Source: an uncultured Tenacibaculum sp.
GTDB lineage: Bacteria; Bacteroidota; Bacteroidia; Flavobacteriales; Flavobacteriaceae
DNA: 64,000 nucleotides
Reading direction: 5' to 3'
Assembly: GCA_947498055.1 (NCBI GenBank)
Contig: CANMJA010000019.1
Coordinates: forward strand, 4,524-68,523
In this document: positions 849 through 57,541 of the stretch, piece after piece
Layout of the letters: each line of letters opens with the position of its first letter
Position numbering within the stretch: position 1 is the first letter of the stretch
Position numbers and translations under genes: made by a program
The notes under the pieces: model-generated
Told to the model about the DNA's origin: nothing
The model's input: the letters and a program-made list of their open reading frames with translations, nothing else
Databases searched by the model: none

Positions 849-1563
849 ATGTCGGTTCAAGTGGTTTTTATGAAGTGTAACGGAATAAAAAATTGTATCG
901 AGAAAAATTCATAACAACGAAAACTTCTCGATAAAAAATTATTTTCCATTGCATTACAAATATTTTCACTCGAATTGATAAATAAAAACAAAAATGTCGG
1001 TTCGAGTAGTTTTTATGAAGTGTAACGGAATAAAAATTGTATCGAGAACAGTTCACAACAAACGAAGACTTCTCGATAAAAAATTATTTTTCATTGCATT
1101 ACAAATATTTTCACTCGAAGTGATAAATAAAAACAAAAATGTCAGTTCGAGTGGTTTTTATGAAGTGCCAACGGAATAAAAATTGTATCGAGAACAGTTC
1201 ACAACAAACGAAGACTTCTCGATAAAAAATTATTTTTCATTGCATTACAAATATTTTCACTCGAAGTGATAAATAAAAACAAAAATGTCAGTTCGAGTGG
1301 TTTTTATGAAGTGCCAACGGAATAAAAATTGTATCGAGAACAATTCACAACAAACGAAGACTTCTCGATAAAAAATTATTTTTCATTGCATTACAAATAA
1401 TTTCACTCGAAGTGATAAATAAAAACAAAAATGTCAGTTCGAGTGGTTTTTATGAAGTGCCAACGGAATAAAAATTGTATCGAGAACAATTCACAACAAA
1501 CGAAGACTTCTCGATAAAAAATTATTTTTCATTGCATTACAAATAATTTCACTCGAAGTGACA
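849..1563. repeat. Five tandem ~145-bp repeat units, each bounded by ~14-bp inverted repeats (REP/MITE-like)
   Basis: Units start at 849, 994, 1139, 1285 and 1431. The ends TGTC(A/G)GTTCGAGTG ... CACTCGAAGTGA(C/T)A are inverted, and each unit has an inner TATCGAGAA/TTCTCGATA pair. The linker AATAAAAACAAAA is constant. Confidence 0.95.
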
Positions 1564-1581
1564 TTATTAAACAAATAAGTT

Positions 1582-1878
1582 ATGAAAGTGTACTATGTTT
1601 ATATATTAAAATGTTCTGATAAAACATACTATACTGGAGTAACTTCAAATTTAGAAAGACGAATAGCAGAACATTCTAATGGATTAGTTAAAGGAAGTTA
1701 CACATATTTCAGAAGACCTTTACAATTAGTTTTTTATTGTGAGTTTACGAACATAAACATTGCAATTGAAAAAGAAAAACAAATTAAAAAATGGTCTAAA
1801 GCTAAAAAAGAAGCTTTAATAAATGATAAACATGAGTTATTACCAAATTTAGCTAAGAAAAAATTTGATAAAACCTAA
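1582..1878 (+). CDS. GIY-YIG nuclease family protein (UPF0213/YhbQ-like)
   Basis: YVYILKC..YYTG.TSNLERR...H and 'AIEKEKQIKKWSKAKKEALI' motifs in a 98-aa protein. Confidence 0.9.
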   Translation: MKVYYVYILKCSDKTYYTGVTSNLERRIAEHSNGLVKGSYTYFRRPLQLVFYCEFTNINIAIEKEKQIKKWSKAKKEALINDKHELLPNLAKKKFDKT

Positions 1879-1879
1879 A

Positions 1880-2011
1880 ATGTCGGTTCGAGTGGTTTTT
1901 ATGAAGTGCAACGGAATAAAAATTGTATCGAGAACAGTTCACAACAACGATGGCTTCTCGATAAAAAAATTATTCTCCATTGCATTACAAATAATTTCAC
2001 TCAAAGTGACA
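1880..2011. repeat. Sixth copy of the repeat unit, immediately after the GIY-YIG stop codon
   Basis: ATGTCGGTTCGAGTGG...CACTCAAAGTGACA; colinear with the 849-1563 units. Confidence 0.95.
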
Positions 2012-2022
2012 AATAAAAATAT

Positions 2023-5000
2023 ATGGAAAACCAAAACACACAACAATTAGACGGAGGTACTTATGAAATCATTCAAGGTAGATTGCAAAAGCAAAAGCAA
2101 GAACTACAAGAACGATTGCATAAATTAAACGATGCTAGAAAACATGTTTTTGGAAGTATAGAAACCAAATTAATTGCTAACGATAGAATTAATACGGAAA
2201 ATAATTGTATTGCTAGAGATATTATTTCACTAGGAAACACTTCTATTTTTGGTTATAATGTGCACTTCGGTTTACGAACTGATATTCAATTATCGGATGT
2301 TTTTAGTATTTATGAATTTAAAGACAATCACTTTCATATTCAGTCGTTAGATGTATTAAACGATACTACTTTTATAAACGATTTCACCAATCTTTATAAA
2401 TATTATAGAAATACCATTTTTTCAAAATTCGCTGTTATTGATAACTATTTACACATGGTTTTTCAATTGAGTGAAAACATTAGCGACATTAAAACCTTTA
2501 AGTGGTTAATAAAAGAAAATACCCTTCAGTACATTGATAATCGTAGTGAACACGAATACCAATTTCCTAAACAACATGAGTTTAAATGGCAAGAAGCTAC
2601 TAGAGACATGCACCGTTATGGTACACATTCTCATATTTCTATTCTCGACAAGATTTTTGTAGAAACGATTGGTGGCGATTTAACCATTAAAATTGAAGAC
2701 AATACCGATGACGGTAAAGGAATTCTTTCTGAACCTGTAGAACAGATAGATCAAACCTTAGATGATGGTCAATTTCGATATGGAGATTTAGGTAATTTAA
2801 TAACGCTCGAAATAAAGCCTTTTCAAGAAGATCCTAGATACTTTATTTACAATCATAAATTACAAGAAGTACAACGTGTAGAAAGTATTAAAGACACCGC
2901 AGTACTACTTCCAGATGGTCATGGACTTATATTTCCTAACGGATATTACCTACAAACCGGAGAACATAAAATTTTTGAAAGCGATGTAAAAGAAGTCAAA
3001 TTTCAAAAGAAAATAAGCTCGCCTAACGGAGAAGATTTCCTGTATATTTTTTATGCAACTATTCGCGGATTGTATGTTTTAATGTCTTATAATATTATAG
3101 AACAAGAAGTAAAAACTCCTATTATTTGTAATGGTTTTACATTGCTAGAAGACGGAGAATTATGTTATTTCCGTACAGAAGATGAGCAAACCAAACATCA
3201 TGTGGTACAAATATGGCAAACCCCTTATTTAAAAGGTTCTTTTATACCATCGCAACACACAGATAGTTTATTGTATAAAATAGGAAATAAAGATATTGTT
3301 CGTGCTATGGCAGAATGTCACGAATTAATCAACCTTTTAAATAAAGAAGATAATTATACGGGACTTTATAACGACATTGCCAAAATATCGAAAGATATTA
3401 ACGATACCTATTATTGGTTACCCGAAGAAGATACACACCAACTAAATCTTCCTGTACTTCAAATAAATGAAGCTGCAAATGCGGCTATAGATGAATTTGA
3501 AAAAGTAGTTCAACTAAAAAAACAAGCGGAAAAAGAAACCAAAGAAATCAATAAAAAATCAGAAGAACTTTTTAACAAAATTAAAAGTACTTCTTTTAAA
3601 TCTATCGACGATTTTGTTGGTTTACTAAGTCAGTTACGTAGTTTACGAGGAGAAGTTATTAGTTTACATGATATTCGATACATTCAACAAGAACACTTAA
3701 CTGCTTTAGAAGAACAAGTAACAGAACAAAATACCTTAATTTCTAAACGATGTGTTCAATTTTTATTGAATGACAAAGCATTAGCGCCTTATCACGAACG
3801 TGTTGCAGAAAAACAGAAAGAGTTACCAGCTATAAAAAAGGTAATAGATGCAAAAGCTTTAGAAAAAGAAGTAATACAAATTACTACCGATTTAGAAATG
3901 CTAATAGATATTGTGTCTAACCTTGAAATTGAAGACACTTCTCAATCTACCAAAATCATTGATAACATTTCTTTAATTTTTGCAACCTTAAATCAATTAA
4001 AAGCAGGCATTAAAAATGCTATTAAAAGCTTAGGAAGTACCGAAGCAAAAGCGGACTTTATTGCACAATTAAAATTGATAGATCAAAGTATTATCAATTA
4101 TATAGACATGGCTACTACGCCAGAAAAATGTGATGAATTTCTTACTAAAACCGCTATTCAATTAGAAGAATTAGAAGGAAAATTTGCAGATTTTGAAGAA
4201 TTTATTGTGCAAATTATTGAAAAGCGAGAAGAAATTCACAGTGCTTTCGATACTCGTAAAAACAACTTAGTTGAAAAACGAAATAAAAAAGCAGTTGCAC
4301 TACAAACTGCTTCTGAACGTATTTTAAAAGGCGTTGCTAAAAAGGCACAAACTTTTGATAGTATTGAAGATATTAACGGCTATTTTGCTGCCGATTTAAT
4401 GATTAATAAGGTTAGAGACATTATTAATCAATTAAAAGAATTAGACGATGCTGGAAAAGCAGAAGCTATTGAAACGCAATTAAAAGTTGCCAAAGAAGAT
4501 GCTTTACGTAAACTAAAAGACAAGCAAGATTTATATGAAGATGGTGAGAATGTTATTAAATTTGGCAAACATAAATTTGGTGTAAATAAACAAGTGTTAG
4601 ATTTAACGATTGTTTATAAAAATGAAGAGTTAAATTACCATTTAACAGGTACCGATTTTTACGAAACTATTCATAATGAAACACTTTTACAATCTAAAAA
4701 ATACTGGAACCAAGAATTAGTTTCTGAAAACAACCTTGTATATCGTTCTGCTTATTTAGCCTATACCATTTTCAAAAATAATTCTGTTGATACCCTTCTT
4801 AACTTTACTGAAAAAGAGCTGTTACAATTCGTACAAAAAGAAAGTAGTAATTTATATTCTGAAGGATATGTTAAAGGAGTACATGATGTAGATGCTAGTA
4901 TTATTTTACACACTTTAGTTCACAAACATCATGAATTAGGAATACTTACCTATTCTCCTACTACACGAGCTTATGCACAGTATTTTTGGAATGCTCTTAC

Positions 5001-6876
5001 TAAGGAAGAACAAGATAATTTAAACACCAATATAAAAGCTTCTGGAGAAGTATTAAGTGTTTTTCCAGATAGTAAAACCTTTACTTTTATCATAGATAAT
5101 TTAACAAAATTAACTACCAATTTTGCTAATGAATCTTATTTGTTTTCAGAAGAAAACACCAATGAAATAGCTAATTATTTATTTAAAGAATTACAACATA
5201 ACAATACCTTTCAAATAAGTACCGATGCTTTTACTTTAAAGGAAGAATTTACAAAAGCATTAAAAAAACAAGATGCTTTACATAAGTTTAAAAAAGGCAT
5301 TGAAAAAGTAGAGAACTATGTAGATAAAATTCATTTAGTAAAACAATGGGTTTCTTCTTTTTTAACGCATAAAGAAGCTATTTATGCATCTTATGAAGAT
5401 GAAATTGTATGTACTTTATTATTTGAACACGAAGCAACTTCAAAAATAAAAGCAGTGCATCCTGTAGAAACTATTAAAAATTTAAAAGGAACACATGCAA
5501 CTATTATTGATGGAACATACGAATTTAATTACCACAATTTCATAGGAAAGCTACAACAATTTAGCACTGTAGAAGTTCCTAATTTTATTACCTATAAAGA
5601 AACCAAACAGCAAGTTACCGAAGAACTTAAAGAAGACTTAAAACTAGAAGAATTTAAACCTAGAGTACTTTCTTCTTTTGTAAGAAATAAACTAATAGAT
5701 CAGGTATATTTTCCTTTAATCGGAGACAATTTAGCCAAACAATTAGGTACTGTTGGCGATAATAAACGTACCGACAGAATGGGAATGCTTTTATTAATTT
5801 CTCCTCCTGGATATGGTAAAACTACCTTAATGGAATACATATCGAATCGTTTAGGTTTGGTATTTATGAAAATTAATGGTCCAGCAATTGGTCACGAAGT
5901 TACTTCTGTAGATCCAATGGCGGCAAATAACTCTGCTTCTAGAGAAGAGTTAAAGAAACTAAATTTAGCTTTTGAAATGGGAGACAATGTCATGTTATAT
6001 TTAGACGATATACAACATTGTAATCCTGAGTTTTTACAAAAATTCATCTCTCTTTCTGATGGTACCAGAAAAATTGAAGGAGTGTATAATGGAAAATCAA
6101 AAACCTATGATTTACGCGGAAAGAAATTCTGTGTTATTATGGCAGGAAATCCATATACTGAAAGCGGAGATCGTTTTCAAATTCCAGATATGTTAGCCAA
6201 TAGGGCAGATATTTACAATTTAGGAGATATTATTGGTGATACCGCACACTTATTTAAATTGAGTTTAATTGAAAACGCCTTAACTTCTAATCCGGTTTTA
6301 CACCAATTAAGTAGTAAGTATTTTGAAGATGTATATGCTTTAGTAGACAAAGTAGAAAATAATACTGCGGAAGTTACTTTAAAAGGAAATCATACCAAAC
6401 AAGAAATTCAAGATTACACAGCCATTTTAGAAAAAGTGATTACGGTTAGAGATACGATTATAAAGGTGAATCAAGCTTATATAAATTCTGCTGCCATGGA
6501 AGATGATTATCGTATTGAACCTTCTTTTAAGCTACAAGGTTCGTATCGTGATATGAATAAATTAGTTGCCAAGATTGTTCCTATTATGAACGATGAAGAA
6601 TTAGATCGTTTGTTATTATCTCATTATGAAAGTGAATCGCAAACCCTTACTTCTGCCGCAGAAGCCAATCTTTTAAAGTATAAAGAACTGATTGAAAATT
6701 TATCGGAAGAAGAGATTTCTAGATGGACAACCATTAAAGAAACTTTTTTGAAAAACAATAAACTAAAAGGTTTTGGAGATAAGAATGAAATGGCACAGAT
6801 ATTAAGTCAGATGATGGCTTTTTCAGATAATTTAGAAGGGATTAAAAATGCTTTACAAAAAGGATTGGAGAAGTAA
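2023..6876 (+). CDS. Large AAA-family ATPase ('DNA repair ATPase'/DUF3686-like)
   Basis: 1617 aa. Walker A SPPGYGKT (~5800-5826), Walker B MLYLDD, long coiled-coil middle. This family usually lies next to flotillin genes. Confidence 0.8.
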   Translation: MENQNTQQLDGGTYEIIQGRLQKQKQELQERLHKLNDARKHVFGSIETKLIANDRINTENNCIARDIISLGNTSIFGYNVHFGLRTDIQLSDVFSIYEFKDNHFHIQSLDVLNDTTFINDFTNLYKYYRNTIFSKFAVIDNYLHMVFQLSENISDIKTFKWLIKENTLQYIDNRSEHEYQFPKQHEFKWQEATRDMHRYGTHSHISILDKIFVETIGGDLTIKIEDNTDDGKGILSEPVEQIDQTLDDGQFRYGDLGNLITLEIKPFQEDPRYFIYNHKLQEVQRVESIKDTAVLLPDGHGLIFPNGYYLQTGEHKIFESDVKEVKFQKKISSPNGEDFLYIFYATIRGLYVLMSYNIIEQEVKTPIICNGFTLLEDGELCYFRTEDEQTKHHVVQIWQTPYLKGSFIPSQHTDSLLYKIGNKDIVRAMAECHELINLLNKEDNYTGLYNDIAKISKDINDTYYWLPEEDTHQLNLPVLQINEAANAAIDEFEKVVQLKKQAEKETKEINKKSEELFNKIKSTSFKSIDDFVGLLSQLRSLRGEVISLHDIRYIQQEHLTALEEQVTEQNTLISKRCVQFLLNDKALAPYHERVAEKQKELPAIKKVIDAKALEKEVIQITTDLEMLIDIVSNLEIEDTSQSTKIIDNISLIFATLNQLKAGIKNAIKSLGSTEAKADFIAQLKLIDQSIINYIDMATTPEKCDEFLTKTAIQLEELEGKFADFEEFIVQIIEKREEIHSAFDTRKNNLVEKRNKKAVALQTASERILKGVAKKAQTFDSIEDINGYFAADLMINKVRDIINQLKELDDAGKAEAIETQLKVAKEDALRKLKDKQDLYEDGENVIKFGKHKFGVNKQVLDLTIVYKNEELNYHLTGTDFYETIHNETLLQSKKYWNQELVSENNLVYRSAYLAYTIFKNNSVDTLLNFTEKELLQFVQKESSNLYSEGYVKGVHDVDASIILHTLVHKHHELGILTYSPTTRAYAQYFWNALTKEEQDNLNTNIKASGEVLSVFPDSKTFTFIIDNLTKLTTNFANESYLFSEENTNEIANYLFKELQHNNTFQISTDAFTLKEEFTKALKKQDALHKFKKGIEKVENYVDKIHLVKQWVSSFLTHKEAIYASYEDEIVCTLLFEHEATSKIKAVHPVETIKNLKGTHATIIDGTYEFNYHNFIGKLQQFSTVEVPNFITYKETKQQVTEELKEDLKLEEFKPRVLSSFVRNKLIDQVYFPLIGDNLAKQLGTVGDNKRTDRMGMLLLISPPGYGKTTLMEYISNRLGLVFMKINGPAIGHEVTSVDPMAANNSASREELKKLNLAFEMGDNVMLYLDDIQHCNPEFLQKFISLSDGTRKIEGVYNGKSKTYDLRGKKFCVIMAGNPYTESGDRFQIPDMLANRADIYNLGDIIGDTAHLFKLSLIENALTSNPVLHQLSSKYFEDVYALVDKVENNTAEVTLKGNHTKQEIQDYTAILEKVITVRDTIIKVNQAYINSAAMEDDYRIEPSFKLQGSYRDMNKLVAKIVPIMNDEELDRLLLSHYESESQTLTSAAEANLLKYKELIENLSEEEISRWTTIKETFLKNNKLKGFGDKNEMAQILSQMMAFSDNLEGIKNALQKGLEK

Positions 6877-6991: not shown

Positions 6992-7424
6992 TGTCAGTTC
7001 GAGACCCCCAACAAAAAATTTGTGAAACGGCTGTAATGATATAAAATAAGATACTACTATTTTAATTAAAAAGTAAAAATAGGATTATGACTCGACTTAT
7101 TGCTAAAAATTTTGAAAATCAAGGCAGCAGCGTTGGCATAGAGATAAAAAGCTGTTTGAGCGGCAGCGAGTTCTTTTTATCTGTGGCTGGTGGTGCCGTA
7201 GCATTTTTTAAATTTTTAGCATCGGTCTTGATTTTTGCTTCTTTGCATCAAGGCAAAGAAGATAGGAATTACGATTTTTTAAGTGATTGAAAAATAAATA
7301 AAAAGATGTCAATGTAGTAAAATTATTCGTAATAAAATGAAGAATAGTTTTCGAGAATCTTATTTTCGTTTTGTAATTATCGCTTCTCGATACAATTTTC
7401 TACCGAAAATCACTCGAAGTGACA
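6992..7424. repeat. Expanded member of the 849-2011 repeat family (same terminal inverted repeats)
   Basis: Left end TGTCAGTTCGAG at 6992; right end ...TTCTCGATACAATTT...CACTCGAAGTGACA ending at 7424. Confidence 0.7.
7101..7261 (+). ncRNA. Putative structured RNA or repeat element with nested stems and a 3' pseudoknot
   Basis: Perfect pairings 7101-7112/7210-7221, 7142-7151/7173-7182 and 7238-7246/7253-7261. The loop 7247-7252 is complementary to 7227-7232. GC-rich relative to the flanks. The strand is a guess. Confidence 0.4.
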
Positions 7425-7584
7425 ATTACAAGATTGTAAACAATACAAAATAAATATATTAACTCTAAAATAAATTTTCCGACTACCCTTGGGTTTCCCC
7501 CCCTTGTTTAAATACGAAATTTTAATCATGAAAATCATATAAAATATCTTATAACAAGTAAATCATTTAAACAATCACCAAGCT

Positions 7585-54119: not shown

Positions 54120-55853
54120 TTAACTTAATCTAACTTCTGAAACCGACGAACCAGTAGCAATCATTGGAAATACATTATCTTCTTTTTCTACACATACTTC
54201 TAAAAAATATGCCTCTTCAGATTCTATCATTTCTTTTATTGATTTTTCTAAATCTTCCCGCTTTGTTACTCTATTTGCTTTTAAATGATATCCTTTTGCT
54301 ATAGCTACAAAATCTGGATTTGTCATTTCTGTGGAAGCATATCGTTTATCAAAAAACAACTGTTGCCATTGACGAACCATTCCTAGATATTCATTATTTA
54401 AAACTACTATTTTAACTGCCGCTTTAGTTTGTAAAATAGTTCCTAATTCTTGAATCGTCATTTGGTAACCTCCATCTCCAATTACTGCTACCACTTCTCT
54501 ATCTGGCGCTCCCATTTTTGCTCCAATAGCAGCTGGTAATGCAAATCCCATGGTACCTAAACCACCAGATGTAATATTACTTTTTGTTTGACTAAATTCA
54601 GCATAACGACAGGCAATCATTTGATGTTGACCAACATCACTAACTATAATGGCTTTTCCTTCAGAAGCATTGTTGATTTCTTTTATTACTTCTCCCATTG
54701 TTAAGCCTTCTTTAGTAGGATATAAATCTTTTTTTATCACCTTATCGAACTCTATAGCATCATAATCTCTAAATTTCTGTAACCAATCTTTATGCATATT
54801 CTCTTTTACAAAAGGTGCTATTGCTTTTAATGTTTCTTTTGCATTTCCTAAAACAGCTACATCTGCTTTTACATTTTTATCTATCTCTGCCGGATCTATT
54901 TCAAAATGAATCACTTTTGCTTGCTTTGCATACCTACTTAAATCACCAGTAACTCGATCATCAAAACGCATTCCTATAGCAATTAGTAAATCACATTCGT
55001 TGGTTAATTTATTGGGACCATAATTACCATGCATACCTACCATACCAACATGCAATGGATGTTTTGTAGGTAATGCAGACAATCCTAATAAGGTACTTGC
55101 AGATGGTATTCCTGTTTTTTCTATAAAGCTTTCAAACTCTTTTTCTGCTTCTCCTAATACGATACCTTGCCCCCATATTATAAATGGTTTTTTAGCTTCA
55201 TTAATTAAATTTGCAGCCTCTTTTATTGCTTCTATATTTAATTCTGGTACCGCTTTATAACTTCTAACTGAAGTACACTTTTCATATGAAAAATCGAATT
55301 GTTCAAATTGCGCATCTTTTGTTATATCTATTAACACAGGACCTGGCCTACCTGAACGCGCTATATAAAATGCTTTTGCAAATATTTCTGGTATTTCGCT
55401 TGCTTTTGTTATTTGATAATTCCATTTTGTTACTGGAGTAGAAATTCCTACTATATCTGTTTCTTGAAAAGCATCTGACCCTAGTAAATGAGATGCAACC
55501 TGACCTGTAATACACACCATTGGTGTAGAATCTATTTGTGCGTCTGCAATACCTGTTATTAAATTAGTAGCTCCAGGTCCAGAAGTTGCCATGGCTACTC
55601 CCACTTTTCCTGTTGCTCTTGCATACCCTTGCGCGGAATGTGTTGCTCCTTGTTCGTGACGTGTAAGTACATGATTCAATTTATCTTCGTACTTATATAA
55701 CTCGTCATATACTGGCATAATAGCTCCTCCTGGGTAACCATATAAAATATCTACTCCTTCTGCCAATAAACATTTTACAACTGCTTCAGCACCAGAAATA
55801 GTTATATTGGTTTGTATCTCTTCTTTTTTTGATTTTTTTTCTCTAGTTTCCAT
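54120..55853 (-). CDS. ilvB: Acetolactate synthase large subunit
   Basis: YGYPGGAIM, RHEQGA, TSGPGATN, GDGGYQM...NN ThDP motif. Confidence 0.96.
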   Translation of the reverse strand: METREKKSKKEEIQTNITISGAEAVVKCLLAEGVDILYGYPGGAIMPVYDELYKYEDKLNHVLTRHEQGATHSAQGYARATGKVGVAMATSGPGATNLITGIADAQIDSTPMVCITGQVASHLLGSDAFQETDIVGISTPVTKWNYQITKASEIPEIFAKAFYIARSGRPGPVLIDITKDAQFEQFDFSYEKCTSVRSYKAVPELNIEAIKEAANLINEAKKPFIIWGQGIVLGEAEKEFESFIEKTGIPSASTLLGLSALPTKHPLHVGMVGMHGNYGPNKLTNECDLLIAIGMRFDDRVTGDLSRYAKQAKVIHFEIDPAEIDKNVKADVAVLGNAKETLKAIAPFVKENMHKDWLQKFRDYDAIEFDKVIKKDLYPTKEGLTMGEVIKEINNASEGKAIIVSDVGQHQMIACRYAEFSQTKSNITSGGLGTMGFALPAAIGAKMGAPDREVVAVIGDGGYQMTIQELGTILQTKAAVKIVVLNNEYLGMVRQWQQLFFDKRYASTEMTNPDFVAIAKGYHLKANRVTKREDLEKSIKEMIESEEAYFLEVCVEKEDNVFPMIATGSSVSEVRLS

Positions 55854-55864
55854 ATTACTGATAT

Positions 55865-57541
55865 TTAAAATTCATCTGTAACACATCCGTTAGATGCTGA
55901 TGCTACTGTTTTTGCATATTTATATAATACACCTCTTTTTACTTTTAATGGTGGTGCAACCCATTTGCTTTTTCTATCTTCTATTTCTTCTGGTGAAATT
56001 TCTAAATTAATCGTATTCGTTTCTGCATTAATAGAAATAATGTCTCCATCTTTTACCAAGGCTATTACGCCTCCTTCTTGTGCTTCTGGAGTTATATGAC
56101 CTACCACAAAACCATGCGTTCCACCAGAAAAACGACCATCTGTAATTAACGCAACATCATTACCTAAACCAGCTCCCATAATAGCTGCAGTTGGCTTTAA
56201 CATTTCCGGCATTCCTGGTCCTCCTTTTGGACCTTCATAACGAATTACTACCACATCTCCTTTTTCTACTTCTCCGTTTTTTATTCCTTCATTGGCTTTA
56301 AATTCTCCTTCAAACACTTTTGCTTTTCCAGAAAAATACAACCCCTCTTTTCCTGTTATTTTAGCTACAGAACCTTCTTTTGCCAAATTGCCATATAACA
56401 TTCGTAAGTGCCCTGTTTCTTTTATTGGGTCATCTATCGATTTAATAACTTCTTGTCCGGTAAGCAAACTAGGTACTCCTTGTAAATTTTCTGCTAAAGT
56501 TTTTCCTGTTACTGTTAAACAATCGCCATGTAATAAGCCTTTTTCTAATAAGTACTTTAAAACTGCTGGCGTACCTCCTACTCGGTGTACATCTTCCATT
56601 AAGTATTTTCCGCTTGGTTTTAAATCTGCTAAAAATGGAGTTTCATCTGAAATACGTTGAAAATCTTTCAATGTAAATGCGACATCAGCTGCTTTTGCAA
56701 TGGCTAAAAAGTGTAAAACAGCATTTGTAGAACCTCCCATTATGGTTACCAAACGAACTGCATTTTCTAATGATTTTTTAGTTACTATATCTGATGGTTT
56801 AATATCTTTTTCTAGTAATACTCGTAAAGCTTCTCCTGCTTTTACACACTCTTTTTCTTTGTTTTTACTAATTGCTGGGTTAGAAGAATTATATGGCAAG
56901 CTCATACCCAATGCTTCTATTGCAGAAGCCATTGTATTGGCAGTATACATACCACCACAAGCTCCTGCTCCTGGAATAGCTTTTTCTATTACACTTTGAT
57001 ATTCTTTTTGTGTTATAGTACCGGCTACTTTACTACCCCAAGCTTCAAAGGCAGAAACAATATCTAATTTTTTTCCTTGATGGCAACCAGAAGCTATTGT
57101 CCCTCCATATACTAAGACAGAAGGTCTATTTAATCGTAACATAGCCATTAAAGCACCTGGCATATTTTTATCGCAACCTACTACGGTAACCAAACCATCG
57201 TATGCCATAGCTTCTACAACCGTTTCCATAGAATCTGCAATAACATCGCGAGAAGGTAATGAAAATCGCATTCCTGGTGTTCCCATAGAAATACCATCAG
57301 AGACGCCTATTGTATTAAAAATAAGTCCGATTAAATCGACATTTTGTGTTCCTTCTTTAACCAATTTGGCTAAATCGTTTAAATGCATGTTACACGGATT
57401 TCCTTCGTATCCGGTACTTGCAATTCCTACCAATGGTTTTTGTAAATCTTCTTTTGTTAAACCAATAGCATGCAACATTGCTTGTGCTGCTGGTTGTGTA
57501 TCGTCTTGCGTTACTTGTTTACTAAACTTATTTAATTCCAT
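55865..57541 (-). CDS. ilvD: Dihydroxy-acid dehydratase
   Basis: [32 protein letters not shown]. Confidence 0.97.

What the first reader, a model, noticed from the sequence alone, without database searches (positions are those of the whole stretch)
849..2011. GIY-YIG nuclease gene embedded in its own array of hairpin repeats
Seen: five tandem ~145-bp units, then the GIY-YIG ORF, then a sixth unit starting 2 nt after its stop codon. Each unit has 14-bp terminal inverted repeats and an inner TATCGAGAA/TTCTCGATA pair. Units 3-5 are nearly identical, suggesting recent amplification, while 1, 2 and 6 are more diverged. Related ends recur at 6992/7424 and 11527/11598. Known: REP/REPIN elements flank their RAYT HUH transposase in this way. 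Inferred: a RAYT-analogous system in which a GIY-YIG nuclease mobilises or amplifies its repeats.
Basis: partly seen in the sequence, partly recalled or inferred. Interest (0 to 1): 0.68.

Follow-up and report, generated by a model that had tools for sequence, protein, structure and literature searches.

The report
Ssn-type nuclease gene amid hairpin repeats
A tiny DNA-cutting enzyme gene in a marine Tenacibaculum sits inside a tandem array of the 131-bp hairpin repeat that accompanies this gene across the Flavobacteriaceae, which makes it a new repeat variant of the Ssn nuclease/hairpin-repeat pairing described in 2025, not a new kind of system.

Summary
Five tandem 145/146-bp units (850-1563) are followed by a 98-aa single-domain GIY-YIG ORF (1582-1878) and a sixth unit (1881-2011). 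About 65 further intergenic copies lie elsewhere in the genome.

The gene-repeat link is real. In 76 of 80 relatives (66-91% identity, many Flavobacteriaceae genera) the gene is flanked by halves of this repeat. It usually sits in the unit's inner loop, giving a ~413-bp element. These elements occupy at least 34 genomic contexts. The flotillin/DUF3686 site is empty in five congeners.

Each unit is an inverted doublet of a ~55-nt motif: [T/C]GTCA tag, conserved TTCGAGTG, a covarying hairpin, then GTATCGAGAAC.

This matches the published Ssn/SRM system (Chenal 2025, site-specific ssDNA nucleases flanked by CGTC-tagged hairpins). That paper already draws the IS and RAYT/REP analogy. The repeat here fails the published SRM search pattern.

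Repeat abundance does not follow the gene: genomes without it hold 33-47 model matches.

Verdict: a real Ssn-like nuclease/repeat pair and a new variant of a known kind. Mobilisation by the nuclease remains inferred.

The parts
850..980 (+). Repeat unit 1, the most diverged copy (88.6-92.4% identical to the others)
995..1125 (+). Repeat unit 2
1140..1271 (+). Repeat unit 3
1286..1417 (+). Repeat unit 4 (98.5-99.2% identical to units 3 and 5)
1432..1563 (+). Repeat unit 5. Left end TGTCAGTTCGAGTG 1432-1445; arm hairpin P2 about 1446-1476; GTATCGAGAAC 1477-1487; loop; CTTCTCGATAA 1507-1517; arm hairpin P4; right end CACTCGAAGTGACA 1550-1563
1582..1878 (+). 98-aa single-domain GIY-YIG nuclease gene (Ssn-like), intact and under purifying selection
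1881..2011 (+). Repeat unit 6, 2 nt after the stop codon and 11 nt before the DUF3686 start codon
3..809 (+). Context: 3' part of a flotillin-like gene. In five congeners it lies 120-160 bp from the next gene with no repeat between them
2023..6876 (+). Context: 1617-aa DUF3686/AAA ATPase gene, the normal downstream neighbour of the flotillin-like gene
6992..7005 (+). Isolated left end of the same repeat family (TGTCAGTTCGAGAC)
7303..7426 (-). Dispersed copy of the repeat family, degenerate at one end

Best explanation
The ORF encodes an Ssn-like, single-domain GIY-YIG nuclease. The 131-bp units are its cognate DNA motif arranged as inverted doublets, analogous to REPINs. Each half is a ~55-nt motif: a [T/C]GTCA tag, one variable base, conserved TTCGAGTG, a hairpin of variable but covarying sequence, then T-GTATCGAGAAC. 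Because the two halves are inverted, the conserved segments can also pair. A single strand can then fold into a four-way (cloverleaf-like) structure.

The basic form of the element, seen in most relatives, is about 413 bp: left half, ORF, right half. Units without the ORF look like non-autonomous derivatives. In the Tenacibaculum sub-lineage of this window the ORF lies between complete units, and the units on either side have expanded and contracted in tandem.

By analogy with characterised Ssn enzymes, the protein most likely binds the tag plus hairpin on single-stranded DNA and nicks close to the tag. Host replication or repair would then do the rest: copying into new intergenic sites and local tandem duplication.

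Shown here: the specific gene-repeat association, nesting, many insertion contexts, empty sites, hairpin covariation and purifying selection. Inferred: binding and cleavage of these units by this protein, and any role of that cleavage in spread or amplification.
For: Protein and genome inventory:
- The ORF matches GIY-YIG at E 2.5e-17 as its only strong domain hit. The nearest solved structures are the small UPF0213 proteins.
- There is one intact copy in the genome, plus one truncated paralogue with a different hairpin repeat.

Association with the repeat:
- The three closest same-genus homologues sit inside a repeat unit.
- Of 80 loci at 66-91% identity from many Flavobacteriaceae genera, 76 have the inner repeat halves on both sides. 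In 57 all four motifs lie within 200 bp.
- In 40 loci the ORF is cleanly nested, with the stop codon 0-30 nt from TTCTCGATA. Median element size is 413 bp, and TGTCA or CGTCA tags match at both ends.

Mobility:
- The loci fall into at least 34 distinct flanking-gene contexts.
- The flotillin/DUF3686 site is empty in five congeners.
- Two ORF-less units have clear empty sites in the closest relative, G015.

Structure:
- The arm hairpins covary: 96% of cells are paired against 33-51% in slid controls, and all 11 arm pairs show changes on both sides (independent fixed-register counts).

Other support:
- dN/dS is 0.04-0.2.
- More distant paralogues carry other tagged hairpins, including Neisseria-NTS-like TGTCATTCCTGCGTAGGCAGGAATC, and protein similarity follows repeat type.
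- Published biochemistry shows that Ssn proteins cut ssDNA next to their own flanking hairpin repeat (PMC11893778).
- 46 of 80 loci have at least one ORF-less unit within 2.5 kb, 13 have three or more, and the maximum is 10. Copy numbers at the window's locus differ between four genomes.
Against: - Repeat abundance does not follow the gene. G036 (47 matches, no homologue), G011 (46) and the complete genome G006 (33) lack the cognate clade, yet their copies are very alike and include tandem arrays. Clade-bearing G017, G014 and G004 have 10, 11 and 0 matches.
- GIY-YIG enzymes hydrolyse DNA and are not known to join strands, so a transposase role needs host functions (my knowledge).
- No target-site duplication could be defined, and the inserted segments at empty sites are longer than the TGTC...GACA core.
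- The units do not match the published SRM pattern.
- CDD assignment (cd10448, Ssn, versus cd10456, UPF0213) could not be tested. The PDB matches are UPF0213 proteins.
- In this window the ORF lies between units, not within one.
Confidence: 0.6

Rival explanations
1. Rider (homing) model. The hairpin doublets are an independent repeat family, spread by host processes or an unrelated enzyme. The GIY-YIG ORF is a selfish gene that cuts these repeats and is copied into their loops by recombinational repair, as homing endonuclease genes are. The nuclease would then depend on the repeats, not the repeats on the nuclease.
For: The distribution fits this model. The repeats are widespread and abundant without the gene (G036, G011, G006), whereas the gene is almost never found without the repeats (76 of 80 loci). 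The ORF usually sits in the apical loop and leaves the hairpin arms intact. In L002 the ORF-bearing left half is identical to that of the adjacent ORF-less unit. Homing is the established mobility mode of GIY-YIG genes (my knowledge).
Against: The protein is a bare 98-aa catalytic domain without the DNA-binding domain of known GIY-YIG homing enzymes. Characterised Ssn proteins cut only ssDNA, which does not give the double-strand break that homing needs (PMC11893778). The junctions between ORF and repeat arms vary in length: 8-50 nt upstream and 0-30 nt downstream. One ORF-less loop (L002) keeps TTTAGATAA, the last codons of the ORF at the same locus in L003, which suggests ORF loss by deletion and not ORF gain. 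That match is short and could be chance.
Confidence: 0.2
2. Domesticated host function. The nuclease and its motifs serve the cell, for example by limiting recombination of incoming single-stranded DNA as shown for SsnA/NTS in Neisseria, or by processing replication or repair intermediates. The repeats would spread and form arrays by ordinary recombination and slippage.
For: The gene is under strong purifying selection and is single-copy. The same flanking context is kept across several genera: upstream of recJ in 11 loci, and between moeA and moaC in 9 loci plus L002-L004. A Neisseria precedent exists (PMC11893778). Tandem arrays also occur in genomes without the gene.
Against: The distribution within the genus is patchy: the clade is in 4 of 25 Tenacibaculum genomes, one of them with an in-frame stop. 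The many different contexts fit a selfish element better than a core function. All units are intergenic and none marks particular gene classes in this genome. Natural transformation is not established for this genus (my knowledge).
Confidence: 0.15
3. The units are structured RNA elements, such as terminators or mRNA stabilisers in the manner of REPs. The nuclease gene merely happens to lie among them.
For: The plus strand folds better as RNA than the minus strand (-37.6 against -29.7 kcal/mol). Units lie mostly after genes: 43 between co-directional genes, 16 between convergent genes and only 2 between divergent genes.
Against: There is no Rfam match. Across 148 units there is no strand bias of G:T over A:C pairs (133 against 127). 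Unit orientation relative to flanking genes is not fixed (27 same, 16 opposite). A chance association cannot explain 76 of 80 flanked orthologues.
Confidence: 0.03

Closest known systems
Ssn nucleases with NTS/SRM hairpin repeats (SsnA of Neisseria meningitidis; CDD cd10448; Chenal et al. 2025, Nat Commun 16:2388, PMC11893778)
   Same: Both are ~94-98-aa single-domain GIY-YIG proteins whose gene is flanked on both sides by a tagged hairpin repeat ([C/T]GTCA at the outer end) that is also dispersed in intergenic regions. Paralogues in the same genus carry near-NTS repeats (TGTCATTCCTGCGTAGGCAGGAATC). Protein and repeat type vary together.
   Different: The repeat here is not a 20-50-nt simple hairpin. 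Each half has a 9-nt conserved segment between tag and hairpin, a hairpin of free sequence, and an 11-nt conserved 3' segment. The halves form 131-bp inverted doublets that can fold as a four-way junction. The repeat fails the published SRM search pattern, which finds 1 match in the whole genome against about 2.7 in shuffles. The ORF is usually nested in the doublet's loop. Cleavage activity and CDD family were not tested.
REP/REPIN elements with RAYT transposases (Nunvar 2010; Bertels and Rainey 2011; reviewed in Di Nocera 2013, PMC3733652)
   Same: A single-copy nuclease-type gene is flanked by its own tagged palindromic repeats. The repeats occur as inverted doublets and clusters, are intergenic, and number tens to hundreds of copies. 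Syntenic retention is long-term.
   Different: The enzyme is GIY-YIG, not an HUH/Y1 transposase. The tag is TGTC/CGTC, not GTAG. Di Nocera et al. reported that CGTC-tagged REPs, mostly head-to-head dimers and also present in Bacteroidetes, lack a dedicated transposase. Here repeat numbers do not follow presence of the gene.
Bacterial MITEs and their parent insertion sequences
   Same: Short ORF-less copies share the terminal inverted repeats of a longer coding copy. Presence or absence differs between related species at the same site.
   Different: There is no DDE or other recognised transposase. No target-site duplication could be defined. The whole coding element is only about 413 bp.
UPF0213 / YhbQ-type small GIY-YIG proteins (PDB 1zg2 BH0048, 1ywl EF2693)
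   Same: These are the closest solved structures by sequence (E 7.5e-13 and 8.5e-9) and have the same size and single-domain build.
   Different: No repeat association is known to me for those proteins. Whether the window's protein falls in that CDD family or in cd10448 could not be decided here.

Membership tests
Ssn family (Chenal et al. 2025) | Single-domain GIY-YIG protein of about 90-100 aa | tested here: met
   The protein is 98 aa and PF01541 covers residues 4-76. The only other Pfam hit is a weak one to the related T5orf172 model (E 0.0011, score just below its cut-off) on the same stretch. GIY, YIG, Arg and Glu motifs align with UPF0213 structures.
Ssn family (Chenal et al. 2025) | Assignment to CDD cd10448 (GIY-YIG_unchar_3), or blastp E<1e-10 to N. 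meningitidis SsnA over at least 75% of its length | not testable with these tools
   No CDD library or SsnA sequence was available. Indirect evidence: E 5e-15 to 3e-13, near full length, to same-genus paralogues flanked by NTS-like repeats. Similarity to UPF0213 structures is equally strong.
Ssn family (Chenal et al. 2025) | Gene flanked on both sides by its hairpin repeat | tested here: met
   The window has five units upstream and one downstream. 76 of 80 relatives have repeat halves on both sides.
Ssn family (Chenal et al. 2025) | Repeat fits the published SRM pattern HGTCWYN(0-2)YYVSBRHN(0-5)WNVSBRGN(0-2)RNCYNB | tested here: not met
   No match in 800-2050 on either strand. The whole genome has 1 match against about 2.7 in shuffles. 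Only the [T/C]GTC tag is shared.
Ssn family (Chenal et al. 2025) | Site-specific cleavage of single-stranded DNA next to the repeat, with no activity on dsDNA or RNA | not testable with these tools
   This needs a biochemical assay.
Ssn family (Chenal et al. 2025) | Genomes rich in the repeat usually carry the gene (81% of genomes with more than 200 SRMs in the paper) | tested here: not met
   Of 17 genomes with model matches, only G000, G014 (in-frame stop) and G017 have the cognate clade. G036 (47 matches), G011 (46) and G006 (33) lack it. Counts are rough: both strands are counted and only 82 candidates per genome were scored.
REPIN/RAYT system | HUH/Y1 (IS200/IS605-like) transposase | tested here: not met
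   The only protein is GIY-YIG.
REPIN/RAYT system | Repeats occur as inverted doublets of a tagged palindrome, dispersed and intergenic | tested here: met
   Doublet anatomy is shown. All 65 copies are intergenic. The tag is TGTC/CGTC, not GTAG.
MITE / insertion sequence pair | Target-site duplication and a recognised transposase in the long copy | tested here: inconclusive
   Empty sites were found, but the flanks are AT-rich and diverged, so no duplication could be defined. No recognised transposase class is present.
GIY-YIG homing endonucleases (I-TevI type) | Catalytic domain joined to a DNA-binding domain; gene lies in an intron or is free-standing in a phage | tested here: not met
   The 98-aa protein has no second domain. 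The setting is a chromosomal intergenic region.

The most novel reading that the evidence does not exclude
The ~413-bp unit (left half-repeat, 95-98-aa GIY-YIG ORF, right half-repeat) is an autonomous transposable element whose only protein is the nuclease. It would act on the element's own folded single-stranded ends. The 131-bp doublets would be its non-autonomous derivatives, which can outlive it. That would make a GIY-YIG nuclease the enzyme of a prokaryotic DNA transposon class not yet recognised, and would give the CGTC-tagged REPs, so far without a transposase, their mobilising enzyme.
Probability: 0.2. Interest if true: 0.85.

Novelty: new variant of a known kind. Interest (0 to 1): 0.5.

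Why it matters
Ssn nucleases are the only known site-specific nucleases that cut single-stranded DNA alone, and their role outside Neisseria is open.

This locus shows that the family extends into Flavobacteriaceae with a recognition element of a different build: conserved single-stranded flanks around a free-sequence hairpin, arranged as inverted doublets. The published motif search misses it, so such systems are under-counted.

The nested ~413-bp coding form, its many insertion contexts and the empty sites give a concrete, small substrate for asking whether a bare GIY-YIG domain can mobilise DNA. The orphan repeat populations are a useful warning that the dependence may run the other way.

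A new enzyme/motif pair could also widen the ssDNA-cutting toolbox.

Tried and rejected
- Rfam at gathering thresholds over the whole window gave no match.
- NCBIfam gave no family for the protein.
- RNA-level function: the plus strand of the window's unit folds better than the minus strand. Across 148 oriented units, however, G:T and A:C pairs are balanced (133 against 127), so I dropped strand-specific RNA selection.
- One long hairpin as the unit's fold: rejected in favour of local arm hairpins. In relatives such as L004 the arms cannot pair with each other, and the arm stems covary.
- First attempt to separate the two arm hairpins by scanning both strands mixed them, because the anchors are nearly palindromic. 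I redid the count with oriented units.
- Orthologous moeA/moaC locus in the window's genome: absent, so no filled/empty comparison was possible there.
- Target-site duplication: empty sites were found but the boundaries are not resolvable.
- Published SRM pattern: no match.
- Anchor to N. meningitidis SsnA: no sequence or CDD was available, the paper's supplements are not held, and the control genomes of the genome search do not include Neisseria.
- Literature searches found no description of this Flavobacteriaceae repeat or of a GIY-YIG transposase in bacteria.

Full report
**What is there**

The window is C19:4524-68523 of a 4.74-Mb, 29% G+C draft genome. Close relatives of its genes come from Tenacibaculum.

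Between a flotillin-like gene (ends at 809) and a 1617-aa DUF3686/AAA ATPase gene (starts at 2023) lie three things:
- five head-to-tail units of 145/146 bp (850-1563; TRF period 146, 4.9 copies, 97% matches);
- a 98-aa ORF (1582-1878) that matches GIY-YIG (PF01541, E 2.5e-17) as its only strong domain hit;
- a sixth unit (1881-2011) starting 2 nt after the stop codon.

The units are separated by the constant spacer AATAAAAACAAAAA. Units 3-5 are 97.7-99.2% identical, and identity between neighbours rises towards the ORF: 92.4, 97.0, 98.5 and 99.2%.

**The repeat in the genome**

- A profile of the six units, iterated, finds about 65 copies in the genome, 32 of them full length, in several subfamilies.
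- All copies are intergenic. 43 lie between co-directional genes, 16 between convergent genes and 2 between divergent genes. Orientation relative to neighbouring genes is not fixed.
- The genome has one intact small GIY-YIG gene (this one), one truncated paralogue on C8 with a different tagged hairpin (TGTCACTTCGAGCGCAGTCGAGAAGC), UvrC, and one further partial hit.

**Anatomy of a unit**

The conserved parts are:
- the ends TGTCA-N-TTCGAGTG and CACTCGAA-N-TGACA;
- the inner pair GTATCGAGAA(C) and TTCTCGATA(C).

Between them, each arm holds a local hairpin whose sequence differs between subfamilies and genomes but keeps pairing.

On 148 distinct units aligned to a covariance model, 96.2% of cells are paired against 33-51% when partners are slid. 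All 11 arm-hairpin pairs show changes on both sides. The end and inner helices are almost invariant. That alignment is fitted to the model and includes both strands. Counts made at fixed distances from the anchors, without any fitting, agree with it.

The unit is best read as an inverted doublet of a ~55-nt motif: tag, conserved segment, free-sequence hairpin, conserved segment. On a single strand it can fold into a four-way junction. The sixth base differs between the two halves in most units (G:G or C:C in 109 of 148; 31 of 35 nested elements), which gives a conserved mismatch in the outer helix. The tag is TGTCA or CGTCA and matches at both ends.

G:T and A:C pairs are balanced overall (133 against 127). 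The better RNA fold of the window's plus strand is therefore not a general sign of RNA-level selection. Rfam has no match.

**The gene and the repeat go together**

In 41 related genomes the protein family is patchy and often multi-copy. The three closest same-genus homologues (76, 71 and 66% identity) lie inside a unit, in the order left half, ORF, right half. All three are at one orthologous site between moeA and moaC.

A scan of 185,579 species genomes returned 80 loci at 66-91% identity from Tenacibaculum, Polaribacter, Maribacter, Flavobacterium, Aquimarina, Winogradskyella and others. Among these loci:
- 76 have the inner halves on both sides within 200 bp, and 57 have all four motifs.
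- 40 are cleanly nested, with the stop codon 0-30 nt from TTCTCGATA.
- Median tag-to-tag size is 413 bp.
- They fall into 11 shared contexts plus 23 singleton contexts that have genes on both sides, so at least 34 distinct contexts.
- 46 have at least one ORF-less unit within 2.5 kb, 13 have three or more, and the maximum is 10.

A gene embedded in an array of its own repeat is thus a recurrent picture, not a peculiarity of this window. The protein is under purifying selection (dN/dS 0.04-0.2).

**This locus is an insertion**

- In five congeners, including one whose DUF3686 protein is 95% identical, the flotillin-DUF3686 spacer is 120-160 bp. It holds a simple terminator-like hairpin, no unit and no GIY-YIG gene.
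- The site is filled in T. agarivorans HZ1, Tenacibaculum sp. ZS6-P6, an uncultured Flavobacteriaceae genome and one more distant MAG. In the first three the ORF also lies between complete units.
- Unit numbers differ: 5+1 here, about 1.6+1, 1+2, and 1+ at least 4 in the others. The arrays on both sides of the gene therefore change quickly.
- ORF-less units are also polymorphic. The units at C59:1793 and C18:47994 are missing from the orthologous spacers of close relatives.
- The boundaries are not sharp enough to define a target-site duplication, and the extra DNA exceeds the TGTC...GACA core.

**What is known**

Chenal et al. 2025 (PMC11893778) describe the Ssn family. Its members are ~94-aa single-domain GIY-YIG proteins (CDD cd10448) that cut only single-stranded DNA next to a tagged hairpin repeat (NTS, CGTCATTCCCGCGMAVGCGGGAATCYRG; more generally SRM). 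That repeat flanks their own gene in most cases and is dispersed in the genome. Their discussion compares NTS-ssnA-NTS with insertion sequences and with RAYT/REP/BIME.

Di Nocera et al. 2013 (PMC3733652) had found CGTC-tagged REPs, mostly head-to-head dimers and also present in Bacteroidetes, without a dedicated transposase.

In this genus, more distant paralogues of the window's protein are flanked by near-NTS repeats (TGTCATTCCTGCGTAGGCAGGAATC) or by other tagged hairpins, and protein similarity follows repeat type. The window's system is therefore an Ssn-like pair.

Three points limit that assignment:
- The repeat fails the published SRM pattern (0 matches in the array; 1 in the genome against about 2.7 in shuffles).
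- The CDD family could not be tested.
- The nearest solved structures are UPF0213 proteins.

**Does the nuclease drive the repeats?**

It does not.

| Genome | Model matches | Cognate GIY-YIG clade |
|---|---|---|
| G036 | 47 | no homologue at all |
| G011 | 46 | only a distant paralogue with another repeat |
| G006 (complete genome) | 33 | only distant paralogues |
| G017 | 10 | present |
| G014 | 11 | present, with an in-frame stop |
| G004 | 0 | present |

Copies in G011 and G036 are very alike and include tandem arrays. The counts are rough: both strands are counted and only 82 candidates per genome were scored. Small repeat-flanked contigs can also be lost from drafts, but G006 is complete.

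Three readings fit this distribution:
- frequent loss of the coding copy, with long-lived orphan repeats, as happens with MITEs;
- cross-action by other Ssn-like paralogues;
- the reverse dependence, in which the ORF rides on a pre-existing repeat family.

One hint favours derivation of ORF-less units by deletion. The loop of an ORF-less unit in L002 retains TTTAGATAA, the last codons of the ORF at the same locus in L003. That match is short.

**Verdict**

- The gene-repeat association is strongly supported and extends across a bacterial family.
- The kind of system and the RAYT analogy are already published.
- The repeat architecture (inverted doublet with covarying arm hairpins, ORF nested in the loop, arrays next to the gene) is a new variant.
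- Action of this protein on these units is likely by homology. Mobilisation or amplification by it is possible but untested, and the distribution data weigh against a simple dependence.

Noticed in passing
G000 C8:70700-71000 (outside the window): A second small GIY-YIG gene is cut off after about 42 codons by a direct copy of its own upstream tagged hairpin (TGTCACTTCGAGC(GCAG)TCGAGAAGC). It belongs to a different paralogue/repeat pair, the same type as L007 and L009. The core GAGCGNAGTCGA occurs 39 times in the genome.
   Followed up: partly
Copies at G000 C1:10905, C4:22002, C7:22801, C40:21715, C35:3010: Some units carry a second ~27-nt module (GTTCTGCTGAGCGACAGTCGAAGTAC) inserted beside the inner stem. 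Different hairpin repeats therefore nest within one another, as in BIME-like mosaics.
   Followed up: no
L028 (G005:C20, about 55100-56150): A tandem array with a 420-bp period. Each period holds one 131-bp doublet, a near-Neisseria-NTS hairpin (TGTCATTCCCGCGCAGGTGGGAATC) and about 250 bp of further repeated sequence.
   Followed up: no
window 7100-7260 and L028 about 2530-2700: The GC-richer segment enclosed by repeat ends at 6992/7424 has a clearly related copy in another Tenacibaculum genome, again next to hairpin repeats. It is itself a repeated element or a conserved structured sequence.
   Followed up: no
L072, L077, L082, L088, L090, L103, L109, L118, L119, L122, L131: Eleven of the 80 related loci, from at least four genera, share one flanking-gene context. 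In L088, the only one I inspected, the GIY-YIG element lies directly upstream of recJ (a single-strand-specific exonuclease) and after an OsmC-like gene. This could be long syntenic retention or a preferred site.
   Followed up: partly
L186 (G007:C104) compared with G000 C40:21715: The same intergenic spacer holds a doublet of the window's family in one species and a different tagged hairpin (GTCACCTTGAGCGCAGTCGAAAGG type) in another. Some spacers are therefore colonised repeatedly.
   Followed up: no
window 11527-11598: A 72-bp hairpin with TGTC...GACA ends (TGTCTAATTGAGTGAAGTT...AACTTCGCTCAAACCGACA) is only loosely like the family and is not found by the profile or the covariance model.
   Followed up: partly
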